This document shows positions 21,566 through 37,883 of a DNA stretch of 64,000 nucleotides, in pieces. Positions within the stretch are counted from its first letter, which is position 1. The number at the start of each line of letters is the position of its first letter. Position numbers and translations under genes: made by a program. The notes beneath the pieces are model-generated. The model made no database searches. It was given only the letters and a program-made list of their open reading frames with translations, and was not told where the DNA came from. Source of the stretch: Bryobacteraceae bacterium (GTDB lineage: Bacteria > Acidobacteriota > Terriglobia > Bryobacterales > Bryobacteraceae); contig DASYCD010000256.1 of assembly GCA_036500405.1 (NCBI GenBank), positions 5,816 through 69,815 on the forward strand, in the 5' to 3' direction.

Positions 21566-21629
21566 CACGAAGGTCGGATTTTCTTTGGCCTTCAGCACAG
21601 TAGCCAACTTGTCTCCCTGGGTGAACGCT

Positions 21630-23267: not shown

Positions 23268-24466
23268 GCCACAGCGAGAGTTAACGACGGAGCAGGCGAT
23301 TCCGAATTCCGCCGCGAGGCGCCGATGACTTCGTGAACCGCTTCGATTACGTCCTCCACATCACGGTCCGACATCGCCGGGTAACACGGCAGCGAAACCA
23401 GCCCATGGTACCGGCGTTCCGCTACAGGGAACATTGCAGGTGTATAGCCAAGCTGTTCACTGTAGTAAGGATGCCGATGAACCGGGATAAAATGTACGCT
23501 CGTACCAATTCGCGCCTGCTTCAGCGCGTCGATGAAGGCGTCACGATCCAGGTTTGTGACTTCCCTGCGAATCTGCACAGCGTACAAATGATACGTATGG
23601 TTCCTCCCCTCCATCTCTTCGGGGAGCCGCAGTTCAGGGTACGCAGCGAAGGCTTCGTTGTAGCGGGCCGCGATGGCGCGCCGCCGGTCGTTGAATGATT
23701 CGAGCCGCCGAAGCTGATGAATGCCGATGGCAGCCTGCATGTCCATCATGTTGCACTTGAATCCCGCTTCTGTGACCTCGTAATACCACGAGCCGGTCTC
23801 GCCATACCGCTTCCATGCGTCACGATTCATACCGTGGAGCGACAAACGTCGCACATGGTCCGCGAAAGCGTCGTCATTCGTTGTGATCATTCCACCTTCA
23901 CCCGTTGTCATGTTCTTCGTTGCATAGAAGCTGAAGCAGGTGGATAAGCAGTGGGTTCCGATGAGGCGGCCGTGATAACGCGTACCTGCGGCGTGCGCGG
24001 CGTCTTCGACGATTGGAATATTGTGTTGTTGCGCAACGCGGATGATTTCATCCAGATCGCACGCCATGCCGGAATAATGTACCGGAACGATTGCACGCGT
24101 GCGGGGAGTAATTGCACGAGCAACCGCCTGGGGATCGACCTGCAGATATTCGTTCACATCGACCAGAACGGGTTTCGCGCCTGTGTGCACCACCACATTT
24201 GCGGTGGCGCAGAAAGTCATTGTGGGCACGATCACTTCATCGCCGGGACCGATACCGAGCGCCATCAACGAGAGGTGAAGAGCCGCCGTGCAGGAGCCGA
24301 CTGCGATCGCATGACGAGCTCCCACGTATTCCGCGAACTCAGTTTCGAAGCGCTTCACTTTGGGTCCAGTGGTGAGCCAACCCCCGCGAAGGCTATCGAC
24401 GACTTCGTTGATTTCATCCTCTCCGATAGACGGCAGCCCATAAGGCAGAAATGCAGTGCGTGTCAT
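23264..24466 (-). CDS. DegT/DnrJ/EryC1/StrS-family sugar aminotransferase
   Basis: The N terminus is LPYGLPSIGEDEINEVVDSLRGGWLTTGPKV. It also has AVGSCTAALH and FYATKNMTTGEGG (PLP lysine). Confidence 0.9.
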   Translation of the reverse strand: MTRTAFLPYGLPSIGEDEINEVVDSLRGGWLTTGPKVKRFETEFAEYVGARHAIAVGSCTAALHLSLMALGIGPGDEVIVPTMTFCATANVVVHTGAKPVLVDVNEYLQVDPQAVARAITPRTRAIVPVHYSGMACDLDEIIRVAQQHNIPIVEDAAHAAGTRYHGRLIGTHCLSTCFSFYATKNMTTGEGGMITTNDDAFADHVRRLSLHGMNRDAWKRYGETGSWYYEVTEAGFKCNMMDMQAAIGIHQLRRLESFNDRRRAIAARYNEAFAAYPELRLPEEMEGRNHTYHLYAVQIRREVTNLDRDAFIDALKQARIGTSVHFIPVHRHPYYSEQLGYTPAMFPVAERRYHGLVSLPCYPAMSDRDVEDVIEAVHEVIGASRRNSESPAPSLTLAVA

Positions 24467-24512
24467 GAATAGAATTCCCCGTTCGACTTATTTTGGTGAA
24501 AAAGAATCGTAG

Positions 24513-25496
24513 CTAAACGATTCGGCGCCAGGTGAGATTGGCGGCGGCCAGGCGGAAACCGCATCGCTCATAAAGCCGCGCAGCAGCGATGTTGCGGAGC
24601 TGCGTACCGACTTCGACGAATGAAACACCCTGAAGCGAAAACCATTCCAGCGCGGCCAGCGTGGCTGCGGACGCAACTCCGCTCTTACGCGCAGTCGCAG
24701 CGGTAGCAACCATACCAATCTCGCCACAACCGATACCAAGCACGCGCGTTGCCTCTTTATCTATGCGGCATGTCACATATCCGAGAACGCGATCACCGGC
24801 GCTGGCGATAATGACGGCATCCGCTATGTGACCAAGACAACTGTTCACGACCCATGTTTCATTGACGCGATCCGCGGTCTCCGTATCGAGCGCCGAGTCA
24901 GCGTGAAAACGATCATGAATGTAAGCAGTGCGCGCGAGTTCCCGTACCTGTGGAAGATCGGATTCACGATACAGACGGAGATTGAAGGGGAGAGATTCTG
25001 TGTTGAATTTGGTCGCTGCGGGAATCTGGAGCGAGAAAGTTTGAATGCCGTCAATGAGATCAAAGTTGTTTCTTCGTAACGCCTCAATCGAAGTGAGATC
25101 GGCGGCATCGACGCGCGCAGCGATGTGGCAAATGCCACGATTACTGCAGGCGAGTACCGCTTCCGATACGAGATCTCGCTTCACCACCGCCGCTTCGCTG
25201 CGCGCGCCGCTTGCGACAAGCAGATCCAGGCGGGCGGCGGGAAAGCCAAACTGCTCCGAATCCCACGCGAGCTCGGTCCAGCAAGCGAGGCCGGCGATTT
25301 CGAAATCGTTACGCGTGCAGATGCGATGTGTACTTTCCCGCATCAGCAGATTATGCATGCGGAGATTTACGAGGGCCTCCACACGGTCTGAAGTGGCAAT
25401 CTGATGCCACGGAGTGTACTGCTGCCTTCCGTGCCTGGCGACAAAGTGTTCCAGCTCTTCTACAGTAGATGCGGGAACCGTTTGGGCCGCGATCAT
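24513..25496 (-). CDS. Two-domain GNAT N-acetyltransferase (WecD-like architecture)
   Basis: The C-terminal GNAT motif is VATAATARKSGVASAATLAALEW...RLYERCGF. The start was trimmed to ATG 25496, which overlaps the upstream stop (ATGA). Confidence 0.7.
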   Translation of the reverse strand: MIAAQTVPASTVEELEHFVARHGRQQYTPWHQIATSDRVEALVNLRMHNLLMRESTHRICTRNDFEIAGLACWTELAWDSEQFGFPAARLDLLVASGARSEAAVVKRDLVSEAVLACSNRGICHIAARVDAADLTSIEALRRNNFDLIDGIQTFSLQIPAATKFNTESLPFNLRLYRESDLPQVRELARTAYIHDRFHADSALDTETADRVNETWVVNSCLGHIADAVIIASAGDRVLGYVTCRIDKEATRVLGIGCGEIGMVATAATARKSGVASAATLAALEWFSLQGVSFVEVGTQLRNIAAARLYERCGFRLAAANLTWRRIV

Positions 25497-27259
25497 AGTG
25501 AGGACTCCTTCTGGCTGTTGTTGGTGTGAATTCCCTGACGGCGCAAAACGAAGCCCACTGTTTGACACAGCACCCGCGCATCGTATGCGAACGACCGGCG
25601 GTCCATGTATTCGACATCGAGCTGGCGTCGACGCTCCCACGGAATTTCGTTGCGGCCGCTGATCTGTGCGAGACCCGTCACGCCAGGCCGCGCGCACAGG
25701 CGCCGCTTATCGGTTTCGGAGTAGAAGCGGATCTGATCAGGTAGTTCCGGACGCGGACCCACCAGGCTCATATCGCCAGTGAAGACGTTGATCAGTTGGG
25801 GAAGCTCATCGAAGCTCGTGCTGCGAAGGAAGTGACCGAGGCGCGTGACCCGCGGATCTTCCGGGGAACTCCAGGCGGAGCCGTCTTCATTGCGGAGGTC
25901 CGGCGCGTTCACAGTCATAGTGCGGAATTTATTCAGCGTGAAGACGCGACCGCCGCGGCCGAGCCGCTTCTGGCGGAACAGTGCGGGCCCAGGCGACGTG
26001 AGACGAATCGCGGCGGCAATCCCGAGAAGCAGAGGGCTCAGAATCACGAGCGCCGCGCCCGAGAGAATTACATCGAGGGTGCGTTTACCGAAGGGCTCGC
26101 GATCGTCACCGGCGACCATGGGAATGCATTCCGAAAGAATTTTGTCGTACTCGGCGCTGTAGCGGTCGAGCATCGCGCGGCTCGTGTACGTGGACTGGAA
26201 TCGAGCAGAAGCCGCCTTCGCGAGCTTCTCGGCGTACGCCGGCTCATTCGCGATCTTCATGATGGCAACGGCGAGCGCGGCCCGATCGCGCGGGGCAATC
26301 AAATGCGCGCATTCGCCCTCCCGCGTCACCTCGCGATTGCTGCCGATGGCGGTCGCGACGATTGGCTTTTCCATCGACATGGCTTCGAGCAGCGCGATGG
26401 AGAGCCCTTCACGCAGGCTGGGTAATGCCACCATGTCCGCAGCCGCGAGAAGATCGCCGACATCTTTGCGGAAGCCGAGGAAGTGAACCACGTCCTGCAG
26501 GCCGAGCCGGGCGGCCTGTTGTTCCAGAGCGCTCTGGATAGGCCCGGTCCCAGGCAGCCAAAGTTTGACGGGCCGTGCAATCTGCCGGCGCACGGTCGCA
26601 ACGGCGGCGAGAAGATCGTCGAGCCCCTTGCCATCAGCAAGACGACCGATAGAGACGATGAGGAAATCGTGCGGGCTCAGGCCAGCCTCCGCACGGGTCG
26701 ATTCCCTGCCCCTGGCAACGGTAATACGCTCCATCGCGATGCCGTTCGGGATTGCGACCATCTTGTTTTCATCGCCGATGCCGAGCGAGAGGCCCCAGCT
26801 GCGATGGAATTCGCTTACAGTAATGATGCGATGACACCAGTTGGCGGCACGGCGCTCAAGAGCGGCGTACACCCGAAGCGCCCACGGCTGCGATTGTTCA
26901 TGAAACGCGAAACCGTGAACGGTGTGGACCACCGCTGGTACGCCGGCCATCTTCGCGGCAAGGCGTCCAACGAATCCGCCCTTGGAGGTGTGAGTGTGAA
27001 CCAGCGTGTAGGGGTTGCGGCGAAGGAATCGGTAAAGACGCCAGAGCCCACGCATATCGCGGAATGGCCGGATGTCACGCCAGATCGCGTCCAGATAGAC
27101 AACACCGATGCCATTCTCTTCGAGAACTTCGATCAGTGCGGGATCCGTGGTGAGTACATCGACCTCCCAGCCAAGATCGCGCGCCATGCGGGCAAGGTCC
27201 AGAATGATGACGGAGCCGCCGCCGAATTTCGATTCTCCGACGACGTGGAGCAGTTTCAT
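25493..27259 (-). CDS. Fusion of a GT4 glycosyltransferase and a PglC-type (small monotopic) phosphoglycosyl transferase
   Basis: The N-terminal GT-B part has [18 protein letters not shown] (E-X7-E). The C-terminal 200 aa read [20 protein letters not shown]...FRQKRLG...FTLNKFRTM...SFDELPQL...SLVGPRP. Confidence 0.85.
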
Positions 27260-27285: not shown

Positions 27286-28629
27286 TCATTTGACGACAGG
27301 CTCGGCCCGGTATTGCACCTGACAGTCCACAGAACCGGGGCCGGCCGATGAATTATTCGTGAAAGGATCGAGCCGCCTCCAGCGGAGGACGAGCCAGGCT
27401 CCGGCTGCTGTGCCGGCCTGAGTGGCGACCACGACCCAGGCCATACCCACGCCGCCGAAACGCGGGGCGAAGGCGATCGCCAACAGCACATTCAGCGCGC
27501 CACATATAAGAACGATGCTGTTCAGTTCCTTCTCCAGGTCGAGCGGCAGCATGCAGTGGATGGCCAGGACATTTCGAAGCGCAATAAAGGGCGCGAGCAG
27601 ACTCAGGATCCGGAGTGGCATGATGGCGGCCTCATAGCCGGGACCGAGCAGCAAGCGCACCAGCAGAGGCGACAGGACCCACATGATTGCGGCCATCGCT
27701 ATACCGACGCCGCACATGATCAGAGCGCCCAGCCTGGCCAGACGCAGCGTACGGTCGCGCGACTGAGTGGCCAGGTGGCTGATGCGCGGATAGACGGCTT
27801 CACTGGCGGGCGCAAGCAGACCGGTAAGCGCGCGGCAAATGCGATCGGCGCCGCCATAGAATCCAACAATCTCGGGCCGCGCGAAAAAGCCGAGCAGGAA
27901 GGTATTGCCGACGGAAAACAGCGTTGAAACATTTCGCGGAATGAAAGTCTTCGCACTGCCGGCGAGCGCGTTGCGAACCGCGCTCACCTTCGGAACTTCA
28001 AATCCTGTGATTCTCGAGATCAGCGCCAGCGAAATTGCGAGCGAGAAGAATGACGCTCCAGCCAGACACGCCAGCGCCGCCCACGTATCGCCGGGGCCAC
28101 GCACGAATATAAACGTGGCGACAACGGCAAGAGCTCGAACGACGAAATCGCACGTCGCCATCAGCCGCATCCGCTCAATCGACTGGAAGAACCACATCAT
28201 GTTCGAGCCCTGAAACACGGCCCAGGCAATTCCCCACCAGAACGTATTGGGGTGATCGCGGAACAGCGGCATGCTCCATTCCACGAGAAGAGCAAGCGCG
28301 CAACTCAGGACAGACAGGACGACTTTGGCGCCCAGCACCGCGGAGACGACTTCGCGAAGAGAGGCGCGGTCGCCTTTAGTGCGCGCCGCTTCGCGCGTGC
28401 CGGAAAAGGTAAATCCGAACTCGACGCCCAGCAGAAGACAGCCGCTGAACGACTGTATTGCCACAAGCACGCCCCACGCAGGTGGACCCAGTGTGCGGCT
28501 CAGGTAAGGGACCGTGACCACCGCCAGCAGATAAGTGGAGCAGTAGATCCCATACATCGAAAAAAGGTTGGTGATGACTCCAGTGGGAATGGAGAGACCG
28601 AAGCACTTGCGTGCGCCCTCAGTCTTCAT
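27286..28629 (-). CDS. wzx: Wzx-type oligosaccharide flippase (MOP superfamily)
   Basis: It is a polytopic membrane protein with the N-terminal pattern ITNLFSMYGIYCSTYLLAVVTVPYLSRTLGPPAWG. The start was trimmed to ATG 28629. Confidence 0.7.
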   Translation of the reverse strand: MKTEGARKCFGLSIPTGVITNLFSMYGIYCSTYLLAVVTVPYLSRTLGPPAWGVLVAIQSFSGCLLLGVEFGFTFSGTREAARTKGDRASLREVVSAVLGAKVVLSVLSCALALLVEWSMPLFRDHPNTFWWGIAWAVFQGSNMMWFFQSIERMRLMATCDFVVRALAVVATFIFVRGPGDTWAALACLAGASFFSLAISLALISRITGFEVPKVSAVRNALAGSAKTFIPRNVSTLFSVGNTFLLGFFARPEIVGFYGGADRICRALTGLLAPASEAVYPRISHLATQSRDRTLRLARLGALIMCGVGIAMAAIMWVLSPLLVRLLLGPGYEAAIMPLRILSLLAPFIALRNVLAIHCMLPLDLEKELNSIVLICGALNVLLAIAFAPRFGGVGMAWVVVATQAGTAAGAWLVLRWRRLDPFTNNSSAGPGSVDCQVQYRAEPVVK

Positions 28630-29884
28630 ACTGGAATTCCCGGCGAAATACGAGATCGCGCGCGGCGGCCATTGCGGCGCAGGCGAGCATCGCCATGACG
28701 AACCACCAGTGGCGCTGGTAAAGGACTTCAATTCCGCTTGAAAGACCCAACATGCCGGCGTGGGCGCCGAGCAAGCCGACCACAAGCGGCTTTGCCTGGG
28801 AATCGGCTTTTTTGAGGGCAGACCTGCCGCGCCAGAAGAACCAACCGACGAATGCCAGGTAGATCGTGAATCCGACAAGTCCCAGCTCCGTCAGAATCCA
28901 GACCGTCGTGTTGTGAATGATGAGCGGATGATAGCCGGCGGGATCGCTGCGCAGATCGAACTCGCCGAGACCGACGCCGCGGATCGGGTGCGATATGAAC
29001 ATCGGGATCGCCTGCCGAATCTGTTCGACGCGTTCCATGGCGGTATCCTGGCGAGCGATGAGTTCTTCATTTTTCGCGCTGAGCTGGCTCTGAACCCAGA
29101 GATACGTGCCGCCAGTGATGGCCAGCGCCAGCACCGCTGAAATCACCCACAGGCGGGGGCGCAGAAAGCTGACCAGGATGAAGCCGAATGTGAAACCGAT
29201 CCACGCGGAGCGAGAGAGCGTGAAAAACAGACCGGCGCCCAGCGCTATGGTGATCGCTGCTCCGAGGATACCCGGGACGGCCGTGCGTCCGCCCAGGTAA
29301 GAGCCGACCTGCATCAGCAAGGCAACCAGCACGAGTCCGCCAAACGCGTTCGGGTCGATATACATGCCGGACACGCGAGCGTTTCCGTAATTCAGCCAGG
29401 CGGCCGAGTAACCCGCTTTTAACGCGACCACCGAAATCAGACAATGGAAACTTACGGCGACGATGAAGATCCGCATGAACTGCCGGATCTCCCGCCAGGT
29501 ACGCGCGGCTGTGGTCAGGCAAAAATAAGAGGCGAACAGAGTGAGCAGGCCGACAATCTTGACGGCTACATAGTCCGTCATGGTCCCGTGCAGATAAACC
29601 GACACTCCCGCGGCACTGAGGAAGACCAGCATCAGCGCGGCGTGCGCCAGACTCCACACCGCGGGAATGAACCGCAGGCGGAACAGGCACAGGAGCAAGC
29701 CGAGAGCGAGAAACAAATCGGATGGAGCGATGTTGACGGATGTCCCCGGGAACTGGACGGGAAAAAAGAATATGTAGAGGCCCATCAGCCAGACGAGCGG
29801 GCCGTTGTGCGCGGCGACCGCCGGTCTGACGCGAACCTGCGCCGGAAGAAAATCGTCCTGCACGTAAAAGGGGACGCCGCTCAC
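28619..29884 (-). CDS. wzy: O-antigen ligase/polymerase family membrane protein (Wzy-like)
   Basis: It has about 10 TM helices and a TLSRSAWIGF motif typical of the Wzy_C/O-antigen ligase domain. The GTG start overlaps the wzc stop. Confidence 0.7.
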   Translation of the reverse strand: MSGVPFYVQDDFLPAQVRVRPAVAAHNGPLVWLMGLYIFFFPVQFPGTSVNIAPSDLFLALGLLLCLFRLRFIPAVWSLAHAALMLVFLSAAGVSVYLHGTMTDYVAVKIVGLLTLFASYFCLTTAARTWREIRQFMRIFIVAVSFHCLISVVALKAGYSAAWLNYGNARVSGMYIDPNAFGGLVLVALLMQVGSYLGGRTAVPGILGAAITIALGAGLFFTLSRSAWIGFTFGFILVSFLRPRLWVISAVLALAITGGTYLWVQSQLSAKNEELIARQDTAMERVEQIRQAIPMFISHPIRGVGLGEFDLRSDPAGYHPLIIHNTTVWILTELGLVGFTIYLAFVGWFFWRGRSALKKADSQAKPLVVGLLGAHAGMLGLSSGIEVLYQRHWWFVMAMLACAAMAAARDLVFRREFQYED

Positions 29885-32133
29885 TGGACCGCGGTCTCCA
29901 CCTCAGGCTCGGACGGAAGATAGCTGCTGTAGGCGGAACTGTCGGATCGCGGATTCCAGTCGTTCAGAATGGTGCCGGCGAGCGGGATGCGATCGGCCGC
30001 CAGACGGCTGGCGGCGGCGACGGCGTCCTGACGGGTGGTCTTGCGAGCGCGGGTAATAAGGACGGCCGCGTCCGAAAGCCGTCCAAGGAGGCGCGCGTCG
30101 GGACCGTGCAGAACCGGCGGCGCATCGATCAGGATGACGTCGTACTGGCTTCGCATGCGGTTCAGAAAATGACCCAGACGATTGCCGCCGAACAGAGGCG
30201 CGTAGCTTGACGAAAGCTTACCTGCCGTCATCAGCGAGAGGCTGGGAACCGGCAGCGTATGAATCTTTTCGGGCTCCGGATTTGCCTTTGGATCCGCGTC
30301 ACGCAGAGCGTCGGCGAGACCGGGCTCCAGGGGCACGTTGAAAATCTGATTGAGGCGCGGACGCCGCAGATCGCCATCGATCAGCAGAACATTGCGGTGG
30401 CAAAGCGCAAGCGAGATTGCCAGATTCGCGGTGATGGTAGTTTTGCCGTCGCCCGGATTCGGGCTGGTGAAGAGCAGGACGCGGCAGCCGCGGTCGCAGC
30501 TCGTCATGATGGAGGCGAGCGCGTCGTGAATGGATTCGATCAGCAGCGCGGGAGTTCCGTTCCACGCAGCGAGTTCGAGACGATCGTCCAGACGTTCGCC
30601 GCCGGGCGGAGGCAAAAGATATTGGGCGTCGCGCCGGCGATCGATAGACGGCACGGCGGCCAGTTCGGGAAGCTGCAGGAGCGTGGAGGCATCGCCGGGA
30701 GCCCGCAGGCGCGGGCGAACCTGCTCGCGCGACACCGCGGCGATCACGCCGGCGAACAGGCCCATGAAAAGACCGAGCGCGAGGTTCAGCGAATAGTTCG
30801 GCGTGTAAGGACGAACCGGCGGCGTCGCGGGCGCAACAATCTTGAGATCCGTGTTGGGCGCCACCGATGCGAGCGCGAGTTCCTGAGCTTTCTCGAGCAG
30901 TGCGGCGTGCATGGCGCGCGTGGTGTCGAGTTGCTTCTGCAGCGTCCCGTAGTGGATGAACCTGGATTCCTGCGACGAGACATGCTGCGATTCGGCGTCA
31001 AACTTTTGCTGCAGCATCGCTTCCCGCCCCGTGGCCGCTTTGAATTCGTTCTGCGCACGGTCACGGACGGCCTGGGTCTCTTTTGCGATTGCGTCCTTGA
31101 CGACAGTAATCTGCTGCTCGACTTCCTGGACTTTGTAGCTGCCCGGCTGATACATCGATTGCAGCTTCTGGGATTGCTGCTGGAGATCCGTCAGTTTGCT
31201 CTGATAAGCCTTGAGCGCCGGATCGTCGATCAGCTGGGTCATCGCGTCCGATGAGGCATTGGCCGCGACCTGATTGCGGGACTCCTTCATCATGCGGTCG
31301 GCTTCGGCGCGGCCCAGTTCCTCGCTCAGAAGACGAAGTTGCTGCTGGGTGACGGTATCCTGGCTATCGGTCTGAACAATTCCGGCGCTCTGCGCGTAGC
31401 GCTGCATTTCCTCTTCGGATGCCGCGAGCTTGCTATTCAGATCGGCGGTCTCCCGGTCCAGATAGTCGCGAAGCTGCTTCGTCGTCGCTTCATCGGACGT
31501 AGAGGAGCGCGTCATGTGCTCGGATACGAGGGTATTCACGAAATCGGCGGCGAACTTCGGGTCATCGGAGCTGTAAGAGACGTTAATGATACGGGCCTGA
31601 TGCCGGATCGAGAGGTTGTGACTGGCCATGCCAATCGCGCTTTCCAGCGGGGTGACGGCGGGCAGGTCCTGCCGGCGGAGGGTGTGCCAGATCATCTGCG
31701 CTGTATCTTTGCCGGACGCAGATCCGGCGTGCTTGTCCAGACCCATTTTCTGGACGACGTCCCGAAGGAGCGGTTCGCTGTTCAGCAGCGTCACCTGGGT
31801 TACGATAGCGTTGTCCGTCGCCGCATCCGATGCGGCGCGGGCCGGCGTGAACGGAGATACCGTGCGGCCGGGGTCCCGCAGCTCGAGAATCGTCGTCGCC
31901 CGATACATCGGCGTCTGGAATCCGCTGATCACGAGAGCGAGCACTATGGCTCCGGCGACACAGGCAAGAATCAGCCATTTGCCGCGCTGGATGGAATGCC
32001 ACGCGCTGGACACGGTGTCGGATTCGGGAGCCGACGGAGCCGGCGGCGAGAAAACATTGCGCGTGGGAGGCTGCCTGCGAACCGGCAGCGCGAGCGACGG
32101 CGGATAACTGACTGGGAATTTGGACTCATTCAT
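29881..32133 (-). CDS. wzc: Polysaccharide co-polymerase / bacterial tyrosine autokinase (Wzc/GumC-like)
   Basis: The N-terminal Wzz-like TM and coiled-coil region is followed by a C-terminal kinase domain with Walker A NPGDGKTT, A' LLIDGDLRRP and B DVILIDAPP. The tail is Tyr-containing (SSAYSSYL). Confidence 0.85.
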   Translation of the reverse strand: MNESKFPVSYPPSLALPVRRQPPTRNVFSPPAPSAPESDTVSSAWHSIQRGKWLILACVAGAIVLALVISGFQTPMYRATTILELRDPGRTVSPFTPARAASDAATDNAIVTQVTLLNSEPLLRDVVQKMGLDKHAGSASGKDTAQMIWHTLRRQDLPAVTPLESAIGMASHNLSIRHQARIINVSYSSDDPKFAADFVNTLVSEHMTRSSTSDEATTKQLRDYLDRETADLNSKLAASEEEMQRYAQSAGIVQTDSQDTVTQQQLRLLSEELGRAEADRMMKESRNQVAANASSDAMTQLIDDPALKAYQSKLTDLQQQSQKLQSMYQPGSYKVQEVEQQITVVKDAIAKETQAVRDRAQNEFKAATGREAMLQQKFDAESQHVSSQESRFIHYGTLQKQLDTTRAMHAALLEKAQELALASVAPNTDLKIVAPATPPVRPYTPNYSLNLALGLFMGLFAGVIAAVSREQVRPRLRAPGDASTLLQLPELAAVPSIDRRRDAQYLLPPPGGERLDDRLELAAWNGTPALLIESIHDALASIMTSCDRGCRVLLFTSPNPGDGKTTITANLAISLALCHRNVLLIDGDLRRPRLNQIFNVPLEPGLADALRDADPKANPEPEKIHTLPVPSLSLMTAGKLSSSYAPLFGGNRLGHFLNRMRSQYDVILIDAPPVLHGPDARLLGRLSDAAVLITRARKTTRQDAVAAASRLAADRIPLAGTILNDWNPRSDSSAYSSYLPSEPEVETAVQ

Positions 32134-32143
32134 ATTTTCGACC

Positions 32144-33082
32144 TCAGCGGAAGATGGCTACGCCCGTACCGATGGAGAGAGCGGCCTGGGCGGCTTTGAG
32201 CGCCACATTTTTCGTACGGCTGTCCGGAATGTACAGGAAGTCACCTGCCTCCAAGCGGACATTTTCGGCCTTGCCGTTGAGAACCTTATCCATATCGAGC
32301 GGAATGTCGGTGCGGGTCCCATCGGGCTTTTCACGCAGAATCCGAGCCTTGCTCAGCTTGGCCGTGGGCAATGGTCCCCCGGCCAGCGACATGGCCTGAA
32401 GAGCGGAGATCTGCTCGCGCTGGCCGACCGCGTACGCGCCCTGCTTATTGACATCGCCCATGACGTAAATCGTTTGACCCGGCTCAACGCTGATCACGTC
32501 GTGTGGCCGCATGATCAGGCCGCTGACCGCGCTCTTGTTGTCGAGCGCATCGCGCAAACCGGCCTCCGCGACATAAAAGTGCCCGGAAGGATCCAGAGCG
32601 GCGCCTGGAACGGGGAGCTGTCCCTGATCCACCTGACGCGAGATTCGGACTTTATTACCGGCATCGGCTTTAACGCCTTCCGCAAGGGAAAGAACTTCCA
32701 GCAGCGTCTTCTCACCCTGTAGTTGAAATTCGCCCGGCTTGTTGACTTCGCCCATGACGGAGACGGGCTGGCTGCGAAGCTCGGTCACGCTCACGGTAAC
32801 CTGCGGGTCTTTCAGCTGGGTGTGGAGCTGTTTCACCAGTTCGGCGTGCAGTTGATCGACGGTCAGGCCTGCGGCGTGAATCGTCCCAGCGAGAGGAACA
32901 TCCACATTGCCGCTCAGATCGATGCGGAACGGATGCGTCCCGATCTCCTCGACTCCGAGTGCCCAGATAGTGACTTCATCGCCGGCGCCGAGCTTATAGG
33001 ACGGAGGCGCCTCGGCGGCCCAGGCAGCGAGCGCCGCACAGCAGCAAATGGCGGCGGACCGCAGAATTGGTTTGAATACCAT
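32144..33082 (-). CDS. wza: Polysaccharide export protein (Wza-like, Poly_export plus SLBB domains)
   Basis: After trimming to ATG 33082, the signal peptide is MVFKPILRSAAICCCAALAAWA, with GGAGA 9 nt upstream. YKLGAGDEVTIW is the export-domain motif. Confidence 0.8.
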   Translation of the reverse strand: MVFKPILRSAAICCCAALAAWAAEAPPSYKLGAGDEVTIWALGVEEIGTHPFRIDLSGNVDVPLAGTIHAAGLTVDQLHAELVKQLHTQLKDPQVTVSVTELRSQPVSVMGEVNKPGEFQLQGEKTLLEVLSLAEGVKADAGNKVRISRQVDQGQLPVPGAALDPSGHFYVAEAGLRDALDNKSAVSGLIMRPHDVISVEPGQTIYVMGDVNKQGAYAVGQREQISALQAMSLAGGPLPTAKLSKARILREKPDGTRTDIPLDMDKVLNGKAENVRLEAGDFLYIPDSRTKNVALKAAQAALSIGTGVAIFR

Positions 33083-33204
33083 GACAGAATTTCTCCAGGG
33101 GGCGCGCAGGAAACCGACGGGCCATGTTCGAAAAAGGACGTGAGATGACTGTGTAGCTCCTGCAGCTTGAGTTTCCGGACAGATCCCCACTGGGCTAGTA
33201 CTCT

Positions 33205-33219
33205 GCAATGCTTGTGCCA
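33205..33219 (-). promoter_or_regulatory. Sigma-54 (-24/-12) promoter of the polysaccharide operon
   Basis: The minus strand reads C-TGGCAC-AAGCA-TTGC-A, an exact match to TGGCAC-N5-TTGC. It lies about 120 nt upstream of the wza start, in an intergenic region. Confidence 0.65.
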
Positions 33220-33384
33220 GGTAACCGTTGCCGCTCTTTGGCGGTAAATAAGTGGTCTGAATATCACCGGACGGGAATGTGAAGCGGCGTTCCATGGAAG
33301 AGAGTGGCAGCGAAAGCCTCTGAAATGGTGTTTCAATCCTATTGATTCCACTTTGAGGCACATCCATGGCTTCCGTCTGTTTAA

Positions 33385-34602
33385 GTGGAAGGCGTGTTGC
33401 ATGTATTCGTACGTGCGAAGGGGGCAACAGCAGATCTGAGCGAATCTGAGCAGGGCCAGCGGGAGCGAAACAGTGCGAGAACATTCACAACGGCGAAGAA
33501 GCCGTTCGGCGCCGCGATACTCGCGCTCACCAAACACGAGAGAAAATTACTCGCCGCCTGGCAGAAGCAATTGCAGGGGCCTCGCGAACTGCGGGGCGCC
33601 TTTGGCGCTCACACGGAAATTGCGCTCTGGAACGCCGCCCGAAAACTACCGAAGGTCGGCTATCCGGAATTTTCTTCCAAACTTGCCGAAGTGGGCGACG
33701 ATCTTGCGCGCCGCGAAGTTCCTCCGGAAGAAATTGTCGCGGTGATCACTAATCTGCAAAATGCCGCGCTCACCTGCCTGGCGCGAGATGAGCAGGTGGA
33801 AGCAATTGCGCTTCTGCGAATCAGTTCGCTCGCGTCCAGTATTCTGGTCGCCGGATATGCCAGGCACTGGCAGAAGCGCGCTGACAGCATGGAAGCCAGG
33901 CTGCGCGACGCGGAAGAACGGATGCTCGGTACGTCTTCTTACGTTACCGGGGTTTATGAACGTGAGCGGCGACGACTCTCGCACGATCTTCATGATGAAA
34001 TCGGACACGAACTCGTTGTGCTGAAGCTAAGGCTGGAACTGATTGCGGCGGACGTCAGTCTGAGCAAGTTCGCCCTGCTCACGCCGAGGCTGAACGACGC
34101 GCTGGAATTGGTCGGGCGGGCAATCGACTCGGTGCGGCGGCTCGTGATGGATCTGGGACCCGCCGTCTTTGACGACCTCGGATTTCTGCCCGCCATTCGT
34201 CTGTACGGAAGACAGTTCAGCGCGAGCACCGGCATTGATGTGACGATTCGAGAGGGCGATATGCCGGCTGAGATTCCGCTTTCGCACCAGACCGCGCTTT
34301 ATCGCGTGATGCAGGGAGCGCTTTCCAACACTTTGCGCCACGGAAAGGCGAAGCATGTGACCGTGGCATTCGCCTGTTTGAAAAATTCTCAATTAATGAT
34401 GACGATTGAAGATGACGGAGTAGGTTTCGATACAACCGCGGTGCGCGTCAAGCAGCGATTCGGCCTGACGGCCATGCGGGAGCGCATCGCGGTGCTGGGC
34501 GGGAAGGTTCATGTGCAGTCCTGGCCCGCAAGTCCGCTGGGTGGCCGCCGAGGCACTCGAATTGAAGTCGATTTACCGCTGGCCGGAGGGAACCCACGAT
34601 GA
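33385..34602 (+). CDS. Cytoplasmic sensor histidine kinase, HisKA_3 (NarX/DegS) type
   Basis: RRRLSHDLHDEIGHEL is the H-box. The C-terminal HATPase has ALSNTLRHGKA, EDDGVGF and FGLTAMRER. The start codon is uncertain (no internal ATG for 170 aa). Confidence 0.8.
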   Translation: MEGVLHVFVRAKGATADLSESEQGQRERNSARTFTTAKKPFGAAILALTKHERKLLAAWQKQLQGPRELRGAFGAHTEIALWNAARKLPKVGYPEFSSKLAEVGDDLARREVPPEEIVAVITNLQNAALTCLARDEQVEAIALLRISSLASSILVAGYARHWQKRADSMEARLRDAEERMLGTSSYVTGVYERERRRLSHDLHDEIGHELVVLKLRLELIAADVSLSKFALLTPRLNDALELVGRAIDSVRRLVMDLGPAVFDDLGFLPAIRLYGRQFSASTGIDVTIREGDMPAEIPLSHQTALYRVMQGALSNTLRHGKAKHVTVAFACLKNSQLMMTIEDDGVGFDTTAVRVKQRFGLTAMRERIAVLGGKVHVQSWPASPLGGRRGTRIEVDLPLAGGNPR

Positions 34603-35249
34603 ATAAGCTGCGTGTACTCGTTTGTGACGACCATTCGCTCTTCCGGGAAGGAGTGAAGTCGATTTTGACGGCGCAGCCGGATATCGAAGTCGTGGGCGAA
34701 GCCGTCGACGGGCTCCAGGCTGTGGAGCTAGCGAAAACTTTGCGGCCGGACGTGGTCCTTATGGACATTTCCATGCCGCTGCTCAAAGGCTTTGACGCCA
34801 CGCGGCGCATTCACCGGATGCTGCCCGATTTGAAAATTCTGGTGCTCACGATTCACGACGATGAGGACCTGGTGGCGCGCTGCCTCATGGAAGGCGCCGC
34901 CGGCTACATTCTCAAGGACGCGCCGCCTTCACAACTTGTTTATGCCACTCAGGCGGTGGGGCGCGGAGAGCGTTATCTGAGCCCGCGTGTGCTCGGCAGC
35001 GTGGTCAACGCTTATAAAGGAACCACAGAGCGCGCGGGCCAGACGAAATACGATCTATTGAGCGATCGCGAACGTGAAATTCTGGTATTACTCGCGGGTG
35101 GCGACGCGTTGAAGGAAATTGCGCAGCGCCTGAACCTCAGCGTGAAGACAGTCGACGCGCACAAAGCCAACCTCATGCGCAAGCTCGAGCTGCATGATCG
35201 CTCGGAACTGATCCGTTACGCGATTCGCAACAAATTGGTGGAGCCTTGA
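34599..35249 (+). CDS. NarL/LuxR-family response regulator
   Basis: The receiver part is LVCDDH...VVLMDISMP and the C-terminal LuxR HTH is LSDREREILVLLAGGDALKEIAQRLNLSVKTVDAHKANLMRKL. There is an ATGA overlap with the kinase gene. Confidence 0.9.
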   Translation: MNKLRVLVCDDHSLFREGVKSILTAQPDIEVVGEAVDGLQAVELAKTLRPDVVLMDISMPLLKGFDATRRIHRMLPDLKILVLTIHDDEDLVARCLMEGAAGYILKDAPPSQLVYATQAVGRGERYLSPRVLGSVVNAYKGTTERAGQTKYDLLSDREREILVLLAGGDALKEIAQRLNLSVKTVDAHKANLMRKLELHDRSELIRYAIRNKLVEP

Positions 35250-35294: not shown

Positions 35295-36719
35295 TCAGCC
35301 TGCAGCGCTGCTGCTGCTCGCGCCTGCGCCAATCTGCCACCGCTTGATCTTATTCAGCAGCGCCTTGTAGCTGATGGACAACTTCTTCGCGGCCAGCTTG
35401 CGATTCCAGTTGACCTCATTCAGAGTGCGCAGCACAACCTCCCGCTCCACGCGTTCCGCCGCGAGCGAGGAAAGCTTCTTGAGGGAAGAAGTATCTTTCG
35501 GCAACTCGGCGACAGGCGAACTCTCCGAGGACGAAGCCGCCGCGGCGCGCGCAACGGGAACCTCGGCATGAGCTTCGGGCTCGACCAGATCGCCCAACAC
35601 AAGCTTGACATCGGGCAGAATGACGAAGCGCTTGATGATGTTTTCGAGTTGACGCACGTTGCCCGGCCATGAGTAATGTTCAATGGCGTCCATGAGATCC
35701 GGTGGAATTTCACGCGCCGGTCGTTTGTACCGGCTTGAGTAGAGATTGATCAAAAACGTGCACAGGGGGGCAATATCTTCCCTCCGATCACGAAGCGGCG
35801 GAATCTCAATCCGGATGACGTTCAGGCGGTAATAAAGATCTTCGCGGAAAGTTCCCTCAGCAACGCACTCTTCAAGACGCTGATTTGTCGCGGCGACTAC
35901 ACGGGCACCGGAGCACTGCGGCTTGGTCCCACCCAACCGCGTAAACTCTCCATCCTGAAGTACATGCAGGAGTTTCGCCTGAAGCAACGGGCTCATTTCC
36001 CCGATTTCATCAAGGAAGATGGTGCCCCGTCCGGCGAGTTCAAACTTGCCGGGTTTATCGCGCAGGGCGCCGGTGAAAGCGCCACGCTCATAGCCAAACA
36101 GTTCCGATTCAAGGAGTTCGGAGGGTAACGCAGCGCAATTCACCTTCAACAGCTGCTCATTGCGGCGAGCAGAAGAGTAGTGAATATGGCGGGCCATCAC
36201 TTCTTTTCCGACTCCCGATTCCCCCAGAATCAGGACCGGCACATCGGTATCGGCAACCTGCGCCGCCAATTCCCGCATCTGCATCATTTGCGGATTGCAC
36301 GAAATCACTTCGCGTGCGGGCGTTCCTGTCGGCGCTGGAGCGCCGCCCTGGCTCTCATCGAGAGCACTTTGAACAGCACGCTCTAAGTCTTCGTCGGCAA
36401 AAGGTTTAACAAGGTAGTCGCTGGCGCCCAGTCGCATCGCTTTCACGACCATGTTTACCTGTCCCATGCCGGACAAAACGATTGTCGGGACGGCGCGCCG
36501 GGAGCGCGCCATTTCTTCCAGAACATCAATGCCGCCGACGCGGGGCATCATGAGATCGAGAATCAGAACATTTGGCTGGCTGGCAGCGCGGAGCCGCGCA
36601 ATTGCGCGCTCGCCGGAAACCGCAGTTTCCACATCATAGCCACGCTGCGTGAGAAAGGCGCCGAGTGACGAACGAAACGACTCGTCGTCATCGACTACAA
36701 GGACACTGGGTTTGGTCAC
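35295..36719 (-). CDS. NtrC-type sigma-54-dependent transcriptional activator (REC, AAA+, Fis HTH)
   Basis: The receiver is VLVVDDDESF...LILDLMMP, Walker A is GESGVGKE and the GAFTGA loop is YERGAFTGA. A C-terminal Fis-type HTH is present. The GTG start 36719 overlaps the upstream stop (GTGA). Confidence 0.9.
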   Translation of the reverse strand: MTKPSVLVVDDDESFRSSLGAFLTQRGYDVETAVSGERAIARLRAASQPNVLILDLMMPRVGGIDVLEEMARSRRAVPTIVLSGMGQVNMVVKAMRLGASDYLVKPFADEDLERAVQSALDESQGGAPAPTGTPAREVISCNPQMMQMRELAAQVADTDVPVLILGESGVGKEVMARHIHYSSARRNEQLLKVNCAALPSELLESELFGYERGAFTGALRDKPGKFELAGRGTIFLDEIGEMSPLLQAKLLHVLQDGEFTRLGGTKPQCSGARVVAATNQRLEECVAEGTFREDLYYRLNVIRIEIPPLRDRREDIAPLCTFLINLYSSRYKRPAREIPPDLMDAIEHYSWPGNVRQLENIIKRFVILPDVKLVLGDLVEPEAHAEVPVARAAAASSSESSPVAELPKDTSSLKKLSSLAAERVEREVVLRTLNEVNWNRKLAAKKLSISYKALLNKIKRWQIGAGASSSSAAG

Positions 36720-37348
36720 GCATCTATACCAGCATGCTGCAGACCAACTGCAATCTCGCCTAAACGATTGATGTTTCGAAGCGCGGCGGAAAGATATTCC
36801 GGACTCCCCACGCAAGCAGTTCGCGCATCATCGAGCGCCATACGCGTAAATCCACGAGCCGCCATAAGGGGATCCGCGAGCTCGCCCGCAATGGTGATCA
36901 TCGTCTGCATGGCTTCGTCCCGCTCCCGCAAACCCGCAAGAACGACAGCCGCAGGCTCGCAGATTTTGCGGAGAGCACGTATTGTTGAGCCATCCACGGG
37001 GCGCTCGGCGGCGAGAGCCAGAATTCCTTCCAGGCGGCCGGATGATGCGATCGGGATCAAAACACGTCCGGCGAACGAGACATCGTCGCCTCGCTCCAAT
37101 GCGGGAAGCGTTGCCGGATGCTCCGCGATCCAGCTATGGAAATCGCCCTCCCAGAGCCGACGTTCGCCTTCCCATCCGCAGGCGGAAACAAAGCGGGGAG
37201 CTGACGCGTCCCAGCAAAAAGCTACAGCGTCGCCGGCGTCGAAAATCGGCCGCGCGGAAGCACACAAAAGCGTGAGAAGAGCGCGAACTGAAGGCGACGG
37301 TTCGCGGCCCGACATTTTTACCTGCGTGCTTCCGATGGCAACCTCCAT
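36716..37348 (-). CDS. GAF-like domain protein with degenerate HisKA/DHp-like tail (no phospho-acceptor His, no ATPase domain)
   Basis: The N-terminal 140 aa are GAF-like (RLEGILALAAERP). The tail IAGELADPLMAARGFTRMAL...YLSAALRNINRLGEI mirrors the HisKA motif sHELRTPL, but with Gly in place of His. Confidence 0.5.
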   Translation of the reverse strand: MEVAIGSTQVKMSGREPSPSVRALLTLLCASARPIFDAGDAVAFCWDASAPRFVSACGWEGERRLWEGDFHSWIAEHPATLPALERGDDVSFAGRVLIPIASSGRLEGILALAAERPVDGSTIRALRKICEPAAVVLAGLRERDEAMQTMITIAGELADPLMAARGFTRMALDDARTACVGSPEYLSAALRNINRLGEIAVGLQHAGIDA

Positions 37349-37517: not shown

Positions 37518-37874
37518 ATGCGAGTACCCATTCTTAAACAGGGCGACTATCTGATCGCCTCCATACAATCCGCTCTTTCCGATGAGGATTTGATTCAGCT
37601 GCGGGATGACCTCGCGGCTCGGGTTGGAAAGTATCGTTCCAAAGGCGTTATCGTCGACGTGACCGTTCTCGACGTCATGGATTCCTTCGCTACCCGCACA
37701 TTGCGCGACCTTGCCCAGTCCGTTCGTCTACGCGGGGCACAGACCGTAATCGTGGGGATTCAGCCGGAGGTGGCGTTCGCCATGGTGCAGTTGGGTCTCG
37801 AACTGGGAAATGTTCATACAGCGCTCGATCTTGAAGAAGGCCTGGAGCTGATGACGGCGGGCCTGCCTGCCTGA
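37518..37874 (+). CDS. rsbS: STAS-domain stressosome scaffold protein RsbS
   Basis: This 118-aa single STAS domain starts VPILKQGDYLIASIQ and contains VIVDVTVLDVMDSFATR, with the conserved DS phospho-serine position. Confidence 0.8.
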   Translation: MRVPILKQGDYLIASIQSALSDEDLIQLRDDLAARVGKYRSKGVIVDVTVLDVMDSFATRTLRDLAQSVRLRGAQTVIVGIQPEVAFAMVQLGLELGNVHTALDLEEGLELMTAGLPA

Positions 37875-37883
37875 GGATCGCCG

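What the first reader, a model, noticed from the sequence alone, without database searches (positions are those of the whole stretch)
33083..33310. A perfect sigma-54 promoter drives an 11-gene exopolysaccharide operon
On the minus strand 33219-33205 reads TGGCAC-AAGCA-TTGC(A), matching all ten fixed positions of the -24/-12 consensus. With equal base frequencies about 0.1 such matches are expected by chance in both strands of 64 kb, and this one is intergenic and correctly oriented. It predicts a leader of about 110 nt before wza (ATG 33082). Downstream, wza, wzc, wzy, wzx, GT4-PGT, GNAT, aminotransferase, SDR, deacetylase, ComA-like and DUF4091 all lie on the same strand down to 18116. Their gaps are at most 64 nt and several have ATGA, GTGA or 8-11-nt overlaps. 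An NtrC-type activator with an intact GAFTGA loop is encoded 2 kb away (35295..36719).
Basis: partly seen in the sequence, partly recalled or inferred. Interest (0 to 1): 0.6.

Follow-up and report, generated by a model that had tools for sequence, protein, structure and literature searches.

The report
Sigma-54 promoter of an acidobacterial EPS operon
A conserved sigma-54 (RpoN) type promoter sits in front of an 11-gene exopolysaccharide export and synthesis operon in an uncultured soil acidobacterium and is probably switched on by the activator encoded 2 kb away; the prediction is sound, but this kind of control of slime genes is already well known.

Summary
TGGCAC-AAGCA-TTGC lies at 33205-33219 (-), is unique in the window, and sits 123 nt upstream of the wza ATG in a 302-bp divergent intergenic region.

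- **Sigma-54 system:** the genome (a Bryobacterales MAG) encodes a full-length RpoN and about 11 activators.
- **Genome-wide signal:** only 10 exact core matches exist, but 7 are intergenic and face a gene start. Control spacers give 0-1.
- **Conservation:** the motif is invariant in three congeneric orthologous loci (one spacer change). A fourth has TGGCAT-N5-TTGC. The surrounding DNA diverges.
- **Operon:** all 11 genes are confirmed, including the "deacetylase" (CE4 fold). They are tightly packed and collinear in relatives.
- **Activator:** the neighbouring NtrC-type protein has an intact GAFTGA. It occurs in exactly the same 5 of 48 genus genomes as this wza. In more distant Bryobacterales its homologue lies directly upstream of wza-wzc, often with a -24/-12-like motif.
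- **Candidate enhancer:** an exact TTCCACTT element lies 100-170 nt upstream in both groups.

The start site, RpoN dependence and single-transcript status therefore remain inferred.

Sigma-54 control of EPS loci is familiar (syp/SypG, PrsR). This scan has already reported similar cases on other DNA. Verdict: a new member of a known kind.

The parts
33205..33219 (-). Sigma-54 -24/-12 promoter core, TGGCAC-AAGCA-TTGC
   Evidence: unique exact match; 14 of 15 columns are invariant in four orthologues; genome-wide positional enrichment.
33192..33194 (-). Predicted transcription start, 11-13 nt downstream of the -12 GC (inferred, not mapped)
   Evidence: Inferred from canonical sigma-54 promoter geometry.
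33083..33193 (-). Leader of about 111 nt. Its first 25 nt or so (33168-33192, AGTGGGGATCTGTnnGGAAA) and the SD region (33083-33100) are conserved; the middle is not. No significant RNA structure and no ops element.
   Evidence: conservation is 80% and 76% against 31% in the middle; fold z-scores 0 to +1; no GGCGGTAG on this strand.
33220..33255 (-). Conserved block from -60 to -27 (CTTATTTACCG ... GGCAACGGTTACC) directly upstream of the -24 element. Role unknown; it could be an architectural-protein or co-regulator site.
   Evidence: 69% invariant columns against 38-42% further upstream.
33346..33390 (-). Candidate enhancer (UAS): an inverted pair on the wza-sense strand, TTCCACTT (33390-33383) and AAGTGGAA (33353-33346), 134-171 nt upstream of the -24 element. 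The distal copy abuts the HK start codon.
   Evidence: exact TTCCACTT also lies upstream of wza in the distant Bryobacterales loci L043-L046 and L054; this is the only place in the genome where the element pairs with a strong -24/-12 site. Caveats.
33303..33307 (-). Third CCACT core (gCCACTc), about 88 nt upstream of the -24 element. It is the only CCACT-type element also kept in G021.
32144..33082 (-). wza: outer-membrane polysaccharide export protein (Poly_export + SLBB), first gene of the operon
   Evidence: The start at 33082 is supported by orthologue open frames of 328-472 aa that do not conserve the upstream extension.
29881..32133 (-). wzc: chain-length determinant / tyrosine autokinase
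28619..29884 (-). wzy-type polymerase (Wzy_C)
27286..28629 (-). wzx-type flippase (Polysacc_synt)
25493..27259 (-). Fused GT4 glycosyltransferase + initiating phosphoglycosyl transferase (Bac_transf)
24513..25496 (-). WecD-like GNAT N-acetyltransferase
23264..24466 (-). DegT/DnrJ/EryC1 sugar aminotransferase
21630..23267 (-). SDR nucleotide-sugar dehydratase/epimerase with an N-terminal extension
20552..21598 (-). CE4-fold polysaccharide deacetylase-like protein, not covered by any Pfam model
   Evidence: no sequence hit. (invariant His residues; fold match to CE4 deacetylases).
19644..20498 (-). ComA-like (phosphosulfolactate synthase family) protein
18116..19651 (-). GH123 / DUF4091-like protein, last gene of the operon. 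A convergent M1 peptidase gene ends at 18068.
   Evidence: this gene is absent from G062.
35295..36719 (-). NtrC-type bacterial enhancer-binding protein (REC + AAA+ with GAFTGA + Fis-type HTH); probable activator
   Evidence: Synteny. Co-occurrence.
36716..37348 (-). 210-aa ORF translationally coupled to the EBP gene (GTGA overlap); only faint GAF and HisKA-like signals
   Evidence: Conserved in G047, G062 and L041.
33385..35249 (+). Divergent two-component pair, HisKA_3 histidine kinase (33385-34602) and NarL/LuxR-type response regulator (34599-35249). It lies between the EBP and wza only in this genus clade. Possible co-regulator.
24504..24523 (-). Weak hairpin + T5 in the GNAT/DegT gap. It is a possible attenuator, but it is not conserved and terminator-like hits are not above the shuffle expectation.

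Best explanation
The motif is a functional sigma-54 (RpoN) promoter of a Wzx/Wzy-dependent exopolysaccharide operon, wza to the GH123-like gene, 18116-33082 on the minus strand.

Proposed mechanism:
1. RpoN holoenzyme binds the -24 GG and -12 GC elements at 33205-33219 as a closed complex. It cannot start on its own.
2. The NtrC-type activator encoded at 35295-36719 is activated through its receiver domain by a kinase that has not been identified.
3. The activator oligomerises on upstream sites. The best candidates are the TTCCACTT/AAGTGGAA pair and the CCACT element 90-170 nt upstream.
4. It contacts sigma-54 through its GAFTGA loop and uses ATP hydrolysis to open the promoter.
5. Transcription starts near 33193, giving a leader of about 111 nt. 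It then runs through the tightly packed, partly overlapping genes.

Shown here: the motif, its conservation, the genome-wide positional signal, the presence and integrity of RpoN and the activator, the gene content, and synteny.

Inferred: the start site, RpoN and activator dependence, the identity of the enhancer, and that all 11 genes are co-transcribed.

Rough odds: real sigma-54 promoter for wza, 0.85; the adjacent EBP is its activator, 0.65; TTCCACTT is that EBP's binding site, 0.4; a single 15-kb transcript is the main mRNA for all 11 genes, 0.55.
For: - The exact core is unique in the window.
- RpoN is full length, with AID, CBD and DBD.
- Genome-wide there are 10 exact cores against 13.6 expected from composition. 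Even so, 7 of 10 are intergenic, correctly oriented and within 200 nt of a start, in a genome that is 90% coding. Spacers of 3, 4, 6 and 7 nt give 1/12, 0/3, 0/5 and 1/7.
- With the leave-one-out matrix, 43 of 88 sites scoring at least 14 bits are in promoter position.
- Orthologous loci G063, G047 and G062 (Wza 92, 79 and 78% identical) carry the same core at 123-124 nt from the ATG. G021 (69%) has TGGCAT-N5-TTGC at 223 nt.
- 93% of motif columns are invariant, against 31-42% in the unconstrained intergenic segments.
- Wza paralogues at 51% identity or less in relatives lack the motif, so the signal is locus-specific.
- The EBP has GAFTGA, a Walker A motif and REC residues intact.
- The order EBP / HK-RR / wza is syntenic in all four relatives.
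- The EBP and wza orthologues are found in the same 5 of 48 genus genomes.
- In distant Bryobacterales and Nitrospirota the EBP homologue lies directly upstream of wza-wzc. A -24/-12-like motif with at most 1 mismatch occurs in 4 of 18 such gaps. My estimate from the counts is about 0.15 expected.
- Exact TTCCACTT lies upstream of the promoter in the focal clade and in 5 of 6 distant Bryobacterales loci.
- No sigma-70 consensus lies in the gap.
- Gene order is conserved to the end of the operon.
Against:
- The extended-matrix rank is only 57th, so the site is not outstanding beyond its core.
- G021 lacks TTCCACTT although its EBP recognition helix is identical.
- TTCCACTT is common in the genome: 247 copies, 26 of them non-coding. 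The enhancer assignment is therefore weak.
- The distal TTCCACTT copy overlaps the ribosome-binding and start region of the divergent kinase gene, and it might serve that gene instead.
- The five genomes that share the EBP and wza are probably one subclade carrying one linked block, so their co-occurrence is not independent evidence.
- About 10 other EBPs are encoded in the genome.
- The sigma-70 scan uses an E. coli-type consensus, which may not fit Acidobacteria.
- A weak hairpin + T-run lies in the GNAT/DegT gap.
Confidence: 0.75

Rival explanations
1. The promoter is a real sigma-54 promoter, but the adjacent EBP is not its activator. One of the other ten or so EBPs, or the divergent HisKA_3 / NarL-type pair acting as co-regulator, controls it. 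In that case the TTCCACTT elements belong to that other factor or to the kinase gene's own control region.
For: - The genome has about 11 full-length EBPs.
- The HK-RR pair shares the intergenic region.
- HK/RR homologues are also nearby in the distant loci L045, L047 and L068.
- G021 keeps the EBP helix but not TTCCACTT.
- The distal TTCCACTT abuts the HK start.
Against: - EBP-wza adjacency is conserved from this genus to other Bryobacterales and even Nitrospirota loci, where no HK-RR intervenes.
- The EBP and wza are co-distributed in the genus.
- NarL-type regulators do not activate sigma-54 holoenzyme (established knowledge).
Confidence: 0.2
2. The sigma-54 promoter drives only the proximal export and assembly genes (wza-wzc-wzy-wzx...). 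Distal sugar-modification genes get part or all of their transcription from unrecognised internal promoters, or are separated by attenuation. The '11-gene operon' would then be a cluster of sub-operons.
For: - The 46-nt and 53-nt gaps before DegT and ComA could hold promoters.
- A hairpin + T5 lies in the GNAT/DegT gap.
- G062 lacks the last gene.
- In distant loci the GT4-PGT and DegT genes sit apart from wza-wzc.
- Long polysaccharide operons often have internal promoters (general knowledge).
Against: - Five junctions overlap by 4-11 nt, and all gaps are 53 nt or less.
- No sigma-70-like or sigma-54-like site lies inside the cluster on the minus strand.
- The hairpin is weak, is not conserved in G021, and terminator-like hits equal the shuffle expectation.
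- Gene order is conserved in G063, G062 and G021.
Confidence: 0.3
3. The match is a chance or vestigial sequence with no promoter function. The operon is transcribed from a sigma-70 or ECF-type promoter that these scans do not recognise.
For: - 14% of shuffled windows contain at least one exact match.
- Three of the ten exact genomic matches are inside genes (one search confirms C224).
- The genome-wide count is not above the composition expectation.
Against: - The core plus flanks is conserved in four orthologous loci against a diverging background.
- Exact matches show strong positional bias.
- Homologous EBP-wza gaps in distant taxa also carry -24/-12-like motifs.
Confidence: 0.05

Closest known systems
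Vibrio fischeri syp locus and its sigma-54-dependent response regulator SypG (PMC10162802 and the papers it cites)
   Same: An NtrC-type REC-AAA+-HTH activator encoded beside a large polysaccharide synthesis and export locus. It is activated by phosphorylation and turns on sigma-54 promoters with upstream enhancer sites.
   Different: - syp has four sigma-54 operons, each with its own enhancer. Here a single promoter heads 11 genes.
- The kinases feeding SypG are known (RscS, SypF, HahK, BinK). Here no cognate kinase is evident.
- The phylum differs and the EBP is not orthologous: LuxO/SypG-type NCBIfam scores are far below cut-off.
PEP-CTERM / exosortase regulon with PrsK-PrsR-PrsT and the sigma-54 'PEP-CTERM box' (Haft et al. 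2006, PMC1569441)
   Same: Sigma-54 promoters with an upstream activator motif, and an NtrC-type response regulator, associated with EPS loci of soil and sediment bacteria. Wza and Wzc give weak hits to the XrtA-system models.
   Different: - The EBP scores 338.5 bits against a 502.6-bit cut-off for PrsR.
- Wza scores 98.8 against 180.
- No exosortase or PEP-CTERM gene is in the operon.
- The target is the EPS operon itself, not single PEP-CTERM protein genes.
General association of sigma-54 and EBPs with exopolysaccharide and cell-envelope genes (Francke et al. 2011, PMC3162934)
   Same: The candidate regulon of this genome is dominated by cell-exterior functions: EPS, two OmpA, BON, PEGA, a subtilase, a GT2 and GlgE. 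This is what that comparative study predicts.
   Different: That study gives a general trend. It does not describe this locus, the Bryobacterales EBP-wza block or the TTCCACTT element.
Burkholderia cenocepacia Bep exopolysaccharide cluster regulated by BerB, an EBP, with sigma-54 (PMC9684580)
   Same: An EBP and RpoN are required for expression of an EPS gene cluster.
   Different: BerB acts together with the c-di-GMP receptor BerA and RpfR. Here the EBP has a phospho-receiver domain and no c-di-GMP link is evident.

Membership tests
Sigma-54 (RpoN) dependent -24/-12 promoter | GG and GC doublets ten bases apart within TGGCAC-N5-TTGC(W) | tested here: met
   Exact 10/10 core followed by A, at 33205-33219 (-).
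Sigma-54 (RpoN) dependent -24/-12 promoter | The host encodes a complete sigma-54 | tested here: met
   A 528-aa ORF with AID, CBD and DBD domains on contig C495.
Sigma-54 (RpoN) dependent -24/-12 promoter | The host encodes an enhancer-binding protein with an AAA+ domain and a GAFTGA loop | tested here: met
   About 11 full-length EBPs in the genome. The neighbour at 35295-36719 has GAFTGA at residue 213 and a Walker A motif.
Sigma-54 (RpoN) dependent -24/-12 promoter | Non-coding position, oriented towards a gene start at a plausible distance, and more frequent in such positions than chance | tested here: met
   The motif is 123 nt upstream of the wza ATG. Genome-wide, 7 of 10 exact cores are in promoter position, against 0-1 with control spacers.
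Sigma-54 (RpoN) dependent -24/-12 promoter | Conservation of the element in orthologous upstream regions | tested here: met
   An identical core in G063 and G047, one spacer change in G062, and TGGCAT-N5-TTGC in G021. 14 of 15 columns are invariant against 31-42% background.
Sigma-54 (RpoN) dependent -24/-12 promoter | Transcription start 11-13 nt downstream of the GC, and dependence on rpoN and an EBP | not testable with these tools
The organism is an uncultured MAG.
Sigma-54 (RpoN) dependent -24/-12 promoter | Upstream activator (enhancer) sites bound by the cognate EBP | tested here: inconclusive
   TTCCACTT/AAGTGGAA lies 134-171 nt upstream and recurs in distant EBP-wza loci. It is missing in G021 despite an identical HTH helix, and it is common genome-wide.
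Wzx/Wzy-dependent exopolysaccharide or capsule assembly locus | Wza-type OPX exporter, Wzc-type PCP/tyrosine kinase, Wzy polymerase, Wzx flippase and an initiating phosphoglycosyl transferase | tested here: met
   All five were found by Pfam above gathering cut-offs.
PEP-CTERM / exosortase PrsK-PrsR system | The EBP is a PrsR equivalog (TIGR02915) | tested here: not met
   338.5 bits against a 502.6-bit cut-off.
PEP-CTERM / exosortase PrsK-PrsR system | An exosortase (EpsH/XrtA) and XrtA-type export proteins in the locus | tested here: not met
   No operon protein hits an exosortase family. Wza scores 98.8 against 180, and the Wzc-type models are all below cut-off.
RfaH/ops (JUMPStart) antitermination leader of polysaccharide operons | An ops element, GGCGGTAG, on the transcribed strand of the leader | tested here: not met
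   No match with 1 mismatch or fewer on the minus strand between 33083 and 33193.

The most novel reading that the evidence does not exclude
In Bryobacterales a conserved block couples four parts: a stressosome module (RsbS/T/X/R-like, 37518-39902), the small GAF / His-less DHp-like protein, the NtrC-type EBP, and the sigma-54 wza promoter. On this reading the stressosome's output in these Acidobacteria would be sigma-54/EBP-driven exopolysaccharide production rather than a sigma-B partner switch. TTCCACTT would be the enhancer of this dedicated circuit.
Probability: 0.15. Interest if true: 0.65.

Novelty: new member of a known kind. Interest (0 to 1): 0.3.

Why it matters
Acidobacteria are among the most abundant soil bacteria. 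Their exopolysaccharides are thought to contribute to soil aggregation and desiccation tolerance, yet almost nothing is known about how they regulate EPS genes.

This locus gives a concrete, testable regulatory model: one promoter, one probable activator and one candidate enhancer word. It is conserved across a Bryobacterales lineage and can be reconstituted in E. coli without culturing the organism.

As a mechanism it adds nothing new. Sigma-54/EBP control of EPS loci is established in Vibrio, Burkholderia, Myxococcus and PEP-CTERM systems, and this scan has already reported similar promoters in at least eight other genomes.

Tried and rejected
- **Wza paralogues.** I scanned 29 homologues at 51% identity or less in relatives and found no motif. 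They are different EPS loci and say nothing about this promoter. My first scan used the wrong strand orientation and was discarded.
- **Leader RNA structure.** Not more stable than shuffles, and there is no convincing conserved fold. A riboswitch or attenuator reading is rejected.
- **RfaH/ops element in the leader.** Absent.
- **PrsR / PEP-CTERM membership.** Rejected on NCBIfam cut-offs and the lack of an exosortase.
- **Hairpin + T5 in the GNAT/DegT gap as a terminator.** It is weak, not conserved, and terminator-like hits equal the shuffle expectation.
- **The exact motif on C224 as a second EPS promoter**, near a paralogue of the CE4-like gene. It lies antisense inside a gene.
- **TTCCACTT as a way to find further targets of the EBP.** No other non-coding copy pairs with a good -24/-12 site.
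- **A palindromic TTCCA-N4/5-TGGAA form of the enhancer**, as noted for other phyla. Only L044 comes close, and the flanks are not conserved.
- **IHF site in the -60 to -27 block.** By eye there is no match to WATCAANNNNTTR. This was not tested further.

Full report
**Observation**

The minus strand of the window reads TGGCACAAGCATTGC at 33219-33205. It is the only exact TGGCAC-N5-TTGC in the 64 kb. Dinucleotide shuffles expect 0.16 matches, and 14 of 100 shuffles have at least one.

The motif lies in the 302-bp gap between wza (ATG 33082, minus strand) and a divergent HisKA_3 histidine-kinase gene (GTG 33385, plus strand). The wza frame stays open upstream to 33484 in this genome. The orthologues, however, have open frames of only 328-472 aa. 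The Poly_export domain also starts at residue 24 of the 312-aa form. ATG 33082 is therefore the start, and the motif is non-coding.

**Gene content**

Pfam and NCBIfam confirm the operon list:
- Wza
- Wzc
- Wzy
- Wzx
- a fused GT4 + phosphoglycosyl transferase
- a WecD-like GNAT
- a DegT aminotransferase
- an SDR
- a ComA-like protein
- a GH123/DUF4091-like protein

An alignment of 17 homologues shows invariant His residues. A profile search gives only marginal CE4 hits. A confident AlphaFold model (pLDDT 88.3) matches CE4 polysaccharide and peptidoglycan deacetylases (Foldseek E 1e-10, TM 0.56-0.67). The label stands at the level of fold.

The junctions are gaps of 10, 26, 46, 31 and 53 nt and overlaps of 4, 11, 4, 4 and 8 nt. 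A convergent M1 peptidase gene closes the cluster at 18068.

**Is there a sigma-54 system, and does the motif behave like its promoter?**

The window belongs to a 5.87-Mb, 541-contig assembly. Related records are titled uncultured Solibacteraceae/Bryobacteraceae, that is Acidobacteriota, order Bryobacterales. The assembly encodes one full-length RpoN with AID, CBD and DBD domains and about 11 full-length EBPs.

Genome-wide there are only 10 exact cores, against 13.6 expected from composition. My own codon-usage gene caller gives 5,386 genes and 90% coding sequence. By those calls, 7 of the 10 exact cores are intergenic, point at a gene and lie within 200 nt of its start. Control spacers of 3, 4, 6 and 7 nt give 1/12, 0/3, 0/5 and 1/7. 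One-mismatch sites show the same bias: 29 in promoter position against 7-12 for the controls.

I trained a weight matrix on the 35 other promoter-positioned sites. It ranks the wza site 57th of 727 (15.3 bits). Among sites scoring at least 14 bits, 43 of 88 are in promoter position. So the site is perfect in the core and ordinary in the flanks.

Genes behind the other strong sites are mostly cell-exterior functions: BON, two OmpA, PEGA, a subtilase, a Gly-zipper protein, a GT2 and GlgE. KdpA, KaiC, AIM24 (next to rpoN) and two DksA/TraR-type genes are also among them. This fits the theme of Francke et al. 2011 (PMC3162934).

**Conservation**

Within the GTDB genus (48 genomes), four carry a true Wza orthologue: G063 (92%), G047 (79%), G062 (78%) and G021 (69%).
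- The first three have the same core 123-124 nt from the ATG, with one change inside the spacer in G062.
- G021 has TGGCAT-N5-TTGC at 223 nt.

In the four-way alignment the share of invariant columns is as follows.

| Segment | Invariant columns |
|---|---|
| -24/-12 motif | 93% |
| -60 to -27 block | 69% |
| First 25 nt of the leader | 80% |
| SD region | 76% |
| Remaining intergenic segments | 31-42% |

Wza paralogues at 51% identity or less in relatives carry no such motif. The operon is collinear in G063, G062 and G021 as far as their contigs reach. G062 lacks the last gene.

**The activator**

The protein at 35295-36719 has REC, sigma-54-interaction and HTH_8 domains. It has GAFTGA at residue 213, a Walker A motif (GESGVGKE) and the receiver acidic pocket. 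It falls below the NCBIfam cut-offs for AtoC, NtrC, PrsR and LuxO, so it is an unnamed NtrC-family member.

The order EBP / NarL-type RR / HK / wza is conserved in all four relatives. The EBP is 81-92% identical, which is better than Wza. EBP orthologues occur in exactly the five genus genomes that have this wza. These genomes are probably one subclade carrying one linked block.

A wider comparison is more telling. In Bryobacterales loci where the EBP is 53-56% identical (L043-L046, L054, L068), and in some Nitrospirota (L056-L058), the EBP homologue sits directly upstream of wza-wzc on the same strand, with no intervening HK-RR. Of 18 such EBP-to-wza gaps:
- 4 carry a -24/-12 motif with at most 1 mismatch. 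I estimate about 0.15 expected from the genome-wide rate.
- 8 carry one with at most 2 mismatches, against about 1.8 expected.

The loci are not all independent. The HK-RR pair therefore looks like an insertion into an older EBP-promoter-wza unit.

**Candidate enhancer**

The focal clade conserves an inverted pair on the wza-sense strand: TTCCACTT (33390-33383) and AAGTGGAA (33353-33346). A further CCACT lies at 33307-33303. These elements sit 88-171 nt upstream of the -24 element.

I defined the word in the focal clade and then searched the distant loci. Exact TTCCACTT turned up in L043 (two copies), L044, L045, L046 (an inverted pair) and L054. In L044, L045, L046 and L054 it lies 100-137 nt upstream of their best -24/-12-like motif. 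L068 has a one-mismatch copy. Non-Bryobacterales loci have none. About 0.14 copies would be expected in those gaps at the non-coding rate of this genome.

Four points count against the assignment:
- The word is common in the genome: 247 copies, 26 of them non-coding.
- G021 lacks it in 19.6 kb, although the Fis-type recognition helix of its EBP is identical.
- The flanks are not conserved.
- The distal copy abuts the HK start codon.

No other non-coding copy in the genome pairs with a good -24/-12 site. This fits a dedicated local regulator. I rate the enhancer assignment at about 0.4.

**Other features**

- The leader of about 111 nt has no significant structure (z 0 to +1) and no ops element.
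- No E. coli-type sigma-70 consensus lies in the gap.
- A weak hairpin + T5 sits in the GNAT/DegT gap. It is not conserved in G021, and terminator-like hits equal the shuffle expectation.

**Mechanism**

See Best explanation. The promoter, its conservation, RpoN, the EBP and the operon layout are shown. The start site, the dependence on RpoN and the EBP, the enhancer identity and co-transcription of all 11 genes are inferred.

**Comparison with known systems**

The closest functional analogue is the V. fischeri syp locus with SypG (PMC10162802). The PEP-CTERM/PrsR regulon (PMC1569441) is similar in logic, but membership fails on model cut-offs and on the lack of an exosortase. Burkholderia Bep/BerB (PMC9684580) is another EBP/RpoN-dependent EPS cluster.

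I found no paper on sigma-54 control of EPS in Acidobacteria. This scan has already followed up similar sigma-54 promoters in front of EPS operons in at least eight other genomes. Two of those notes mention TTCC/GGAA-type enhancers. They are AI notes and are used here only as leads.

**Verdict**

This is a well-supported prediction of a familiar kind: a new member of a known class, of modest interest.

The most novel reading left open concerns the stressosome module. It is confirmed by Pfam and lies next to the EBP in every Bryobacterales locus fetched. It might signal through this EBP to EPS production. I found no literature on such a link and did not test it.

Noticed in passing
window 37518-39902 (+), and L040-L046, L054, L068: A four-gene stressosome-like module: RsbS-like STAS, an RsbT-like HATPase_c_2 kinase, an RsbX-like PP2C, and an RsbR-like RsbRD_N+STAS protein. 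It is divergent from the orf210-EBP operon. It stays adjacent to the EBP homologue in every Bryobacterales locus fetched, down to 53% EBP identity. No sigma-B-type output was seen nearby.
   Followed up: partly
window 44214-44228 (-), 45740-45754 (-), 48830-48844 (-): Three further one-mismatch -24/-12 motifs in promoter position in the same window: TGGCAC..CGTGC, TGGCAT..GTTGC and CGGCAC..ATTGC. They lie 204, 31 and 21 nt upstream of minus-strand genes.
   Followed up: no
window 33385-35249 (+) compared with L043-L046, L054, L068: The HisKA_3 kinase / NarL-type regulator pair lies between the EBP and wza only in the focal genus clade. In more distant Bryobacterales the EBP directly precedes wza, and HK/RR homologues sit elsewhere in the neighbourhood. 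The pair looks like an insertion or inversion into an older EBP-promoter-wza unit.
   Followed up: partly
window 20552-21598 (-); paralogue at G000:C224:6582-7514: The CE4-fold deacetylase-like family has invariant His127, His132, His274 and His278 and is not covered by any Pfam or NCBIfam model. It was found in 12 of 151 Bryobacterales genomes sampled, and there is a second copy in this genome.
   Followed up: partly
window 19644-20498 (-); L044 11138-11890: A ComA-like (phosphosulfolactate synthase family) gene sits inside the EPS operon. A 55% homologue is also found near wza in a distant Bryobacterales locus. This hints at an unusual, possibly sulfonated or lactyl-type, sugar modification.
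   Followed up: no
G000:C495:6855-6869 (+), about 1.1 kb from rpoN (C495:5226-5699, -): An exact sigma-54 core lies 41 nt upstream of an AIM24-family / zinc-ribbon gene, close to rpoN itself.
   Followed up: no
G000:C66:8128 and G000:C499:16320: Two separate DksA/TraR-type zinc-finger genes are each preceded by a strong sigma-54-type site. On C499 the site is back-to-back with another one facing an OmpA-family gene.
   Followed up: no
G062:C180 (L145 8191-8248): The orthologous operon in G062 ends after the ComA-like gene. The GH123/DUF4091-like last gene is missing, and the convergent M1 peptidase gene follows directly.
   Followed up: no
L032 9600-9700 (G021 upstream of wza): G021 has no TTCCACTT. 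It has its own repeats instead: ATCTGCCAAT twice about 27 nt apart, and a GGCAACC-N6-GGTTGCC inverted repeat. The enhancer region may have been remodelled while the EBP helix stayed the same.
   Followed up: no
window 36716-37348 (-): The 210-aa ORF overlapping the EBP start has only faint GAF_2 (E 0.11) and HisKA (E 0.12) signals. It is conserved at 74-84% in G047, G062 and L041, and at about 40% in G021.
   Followed up: partly
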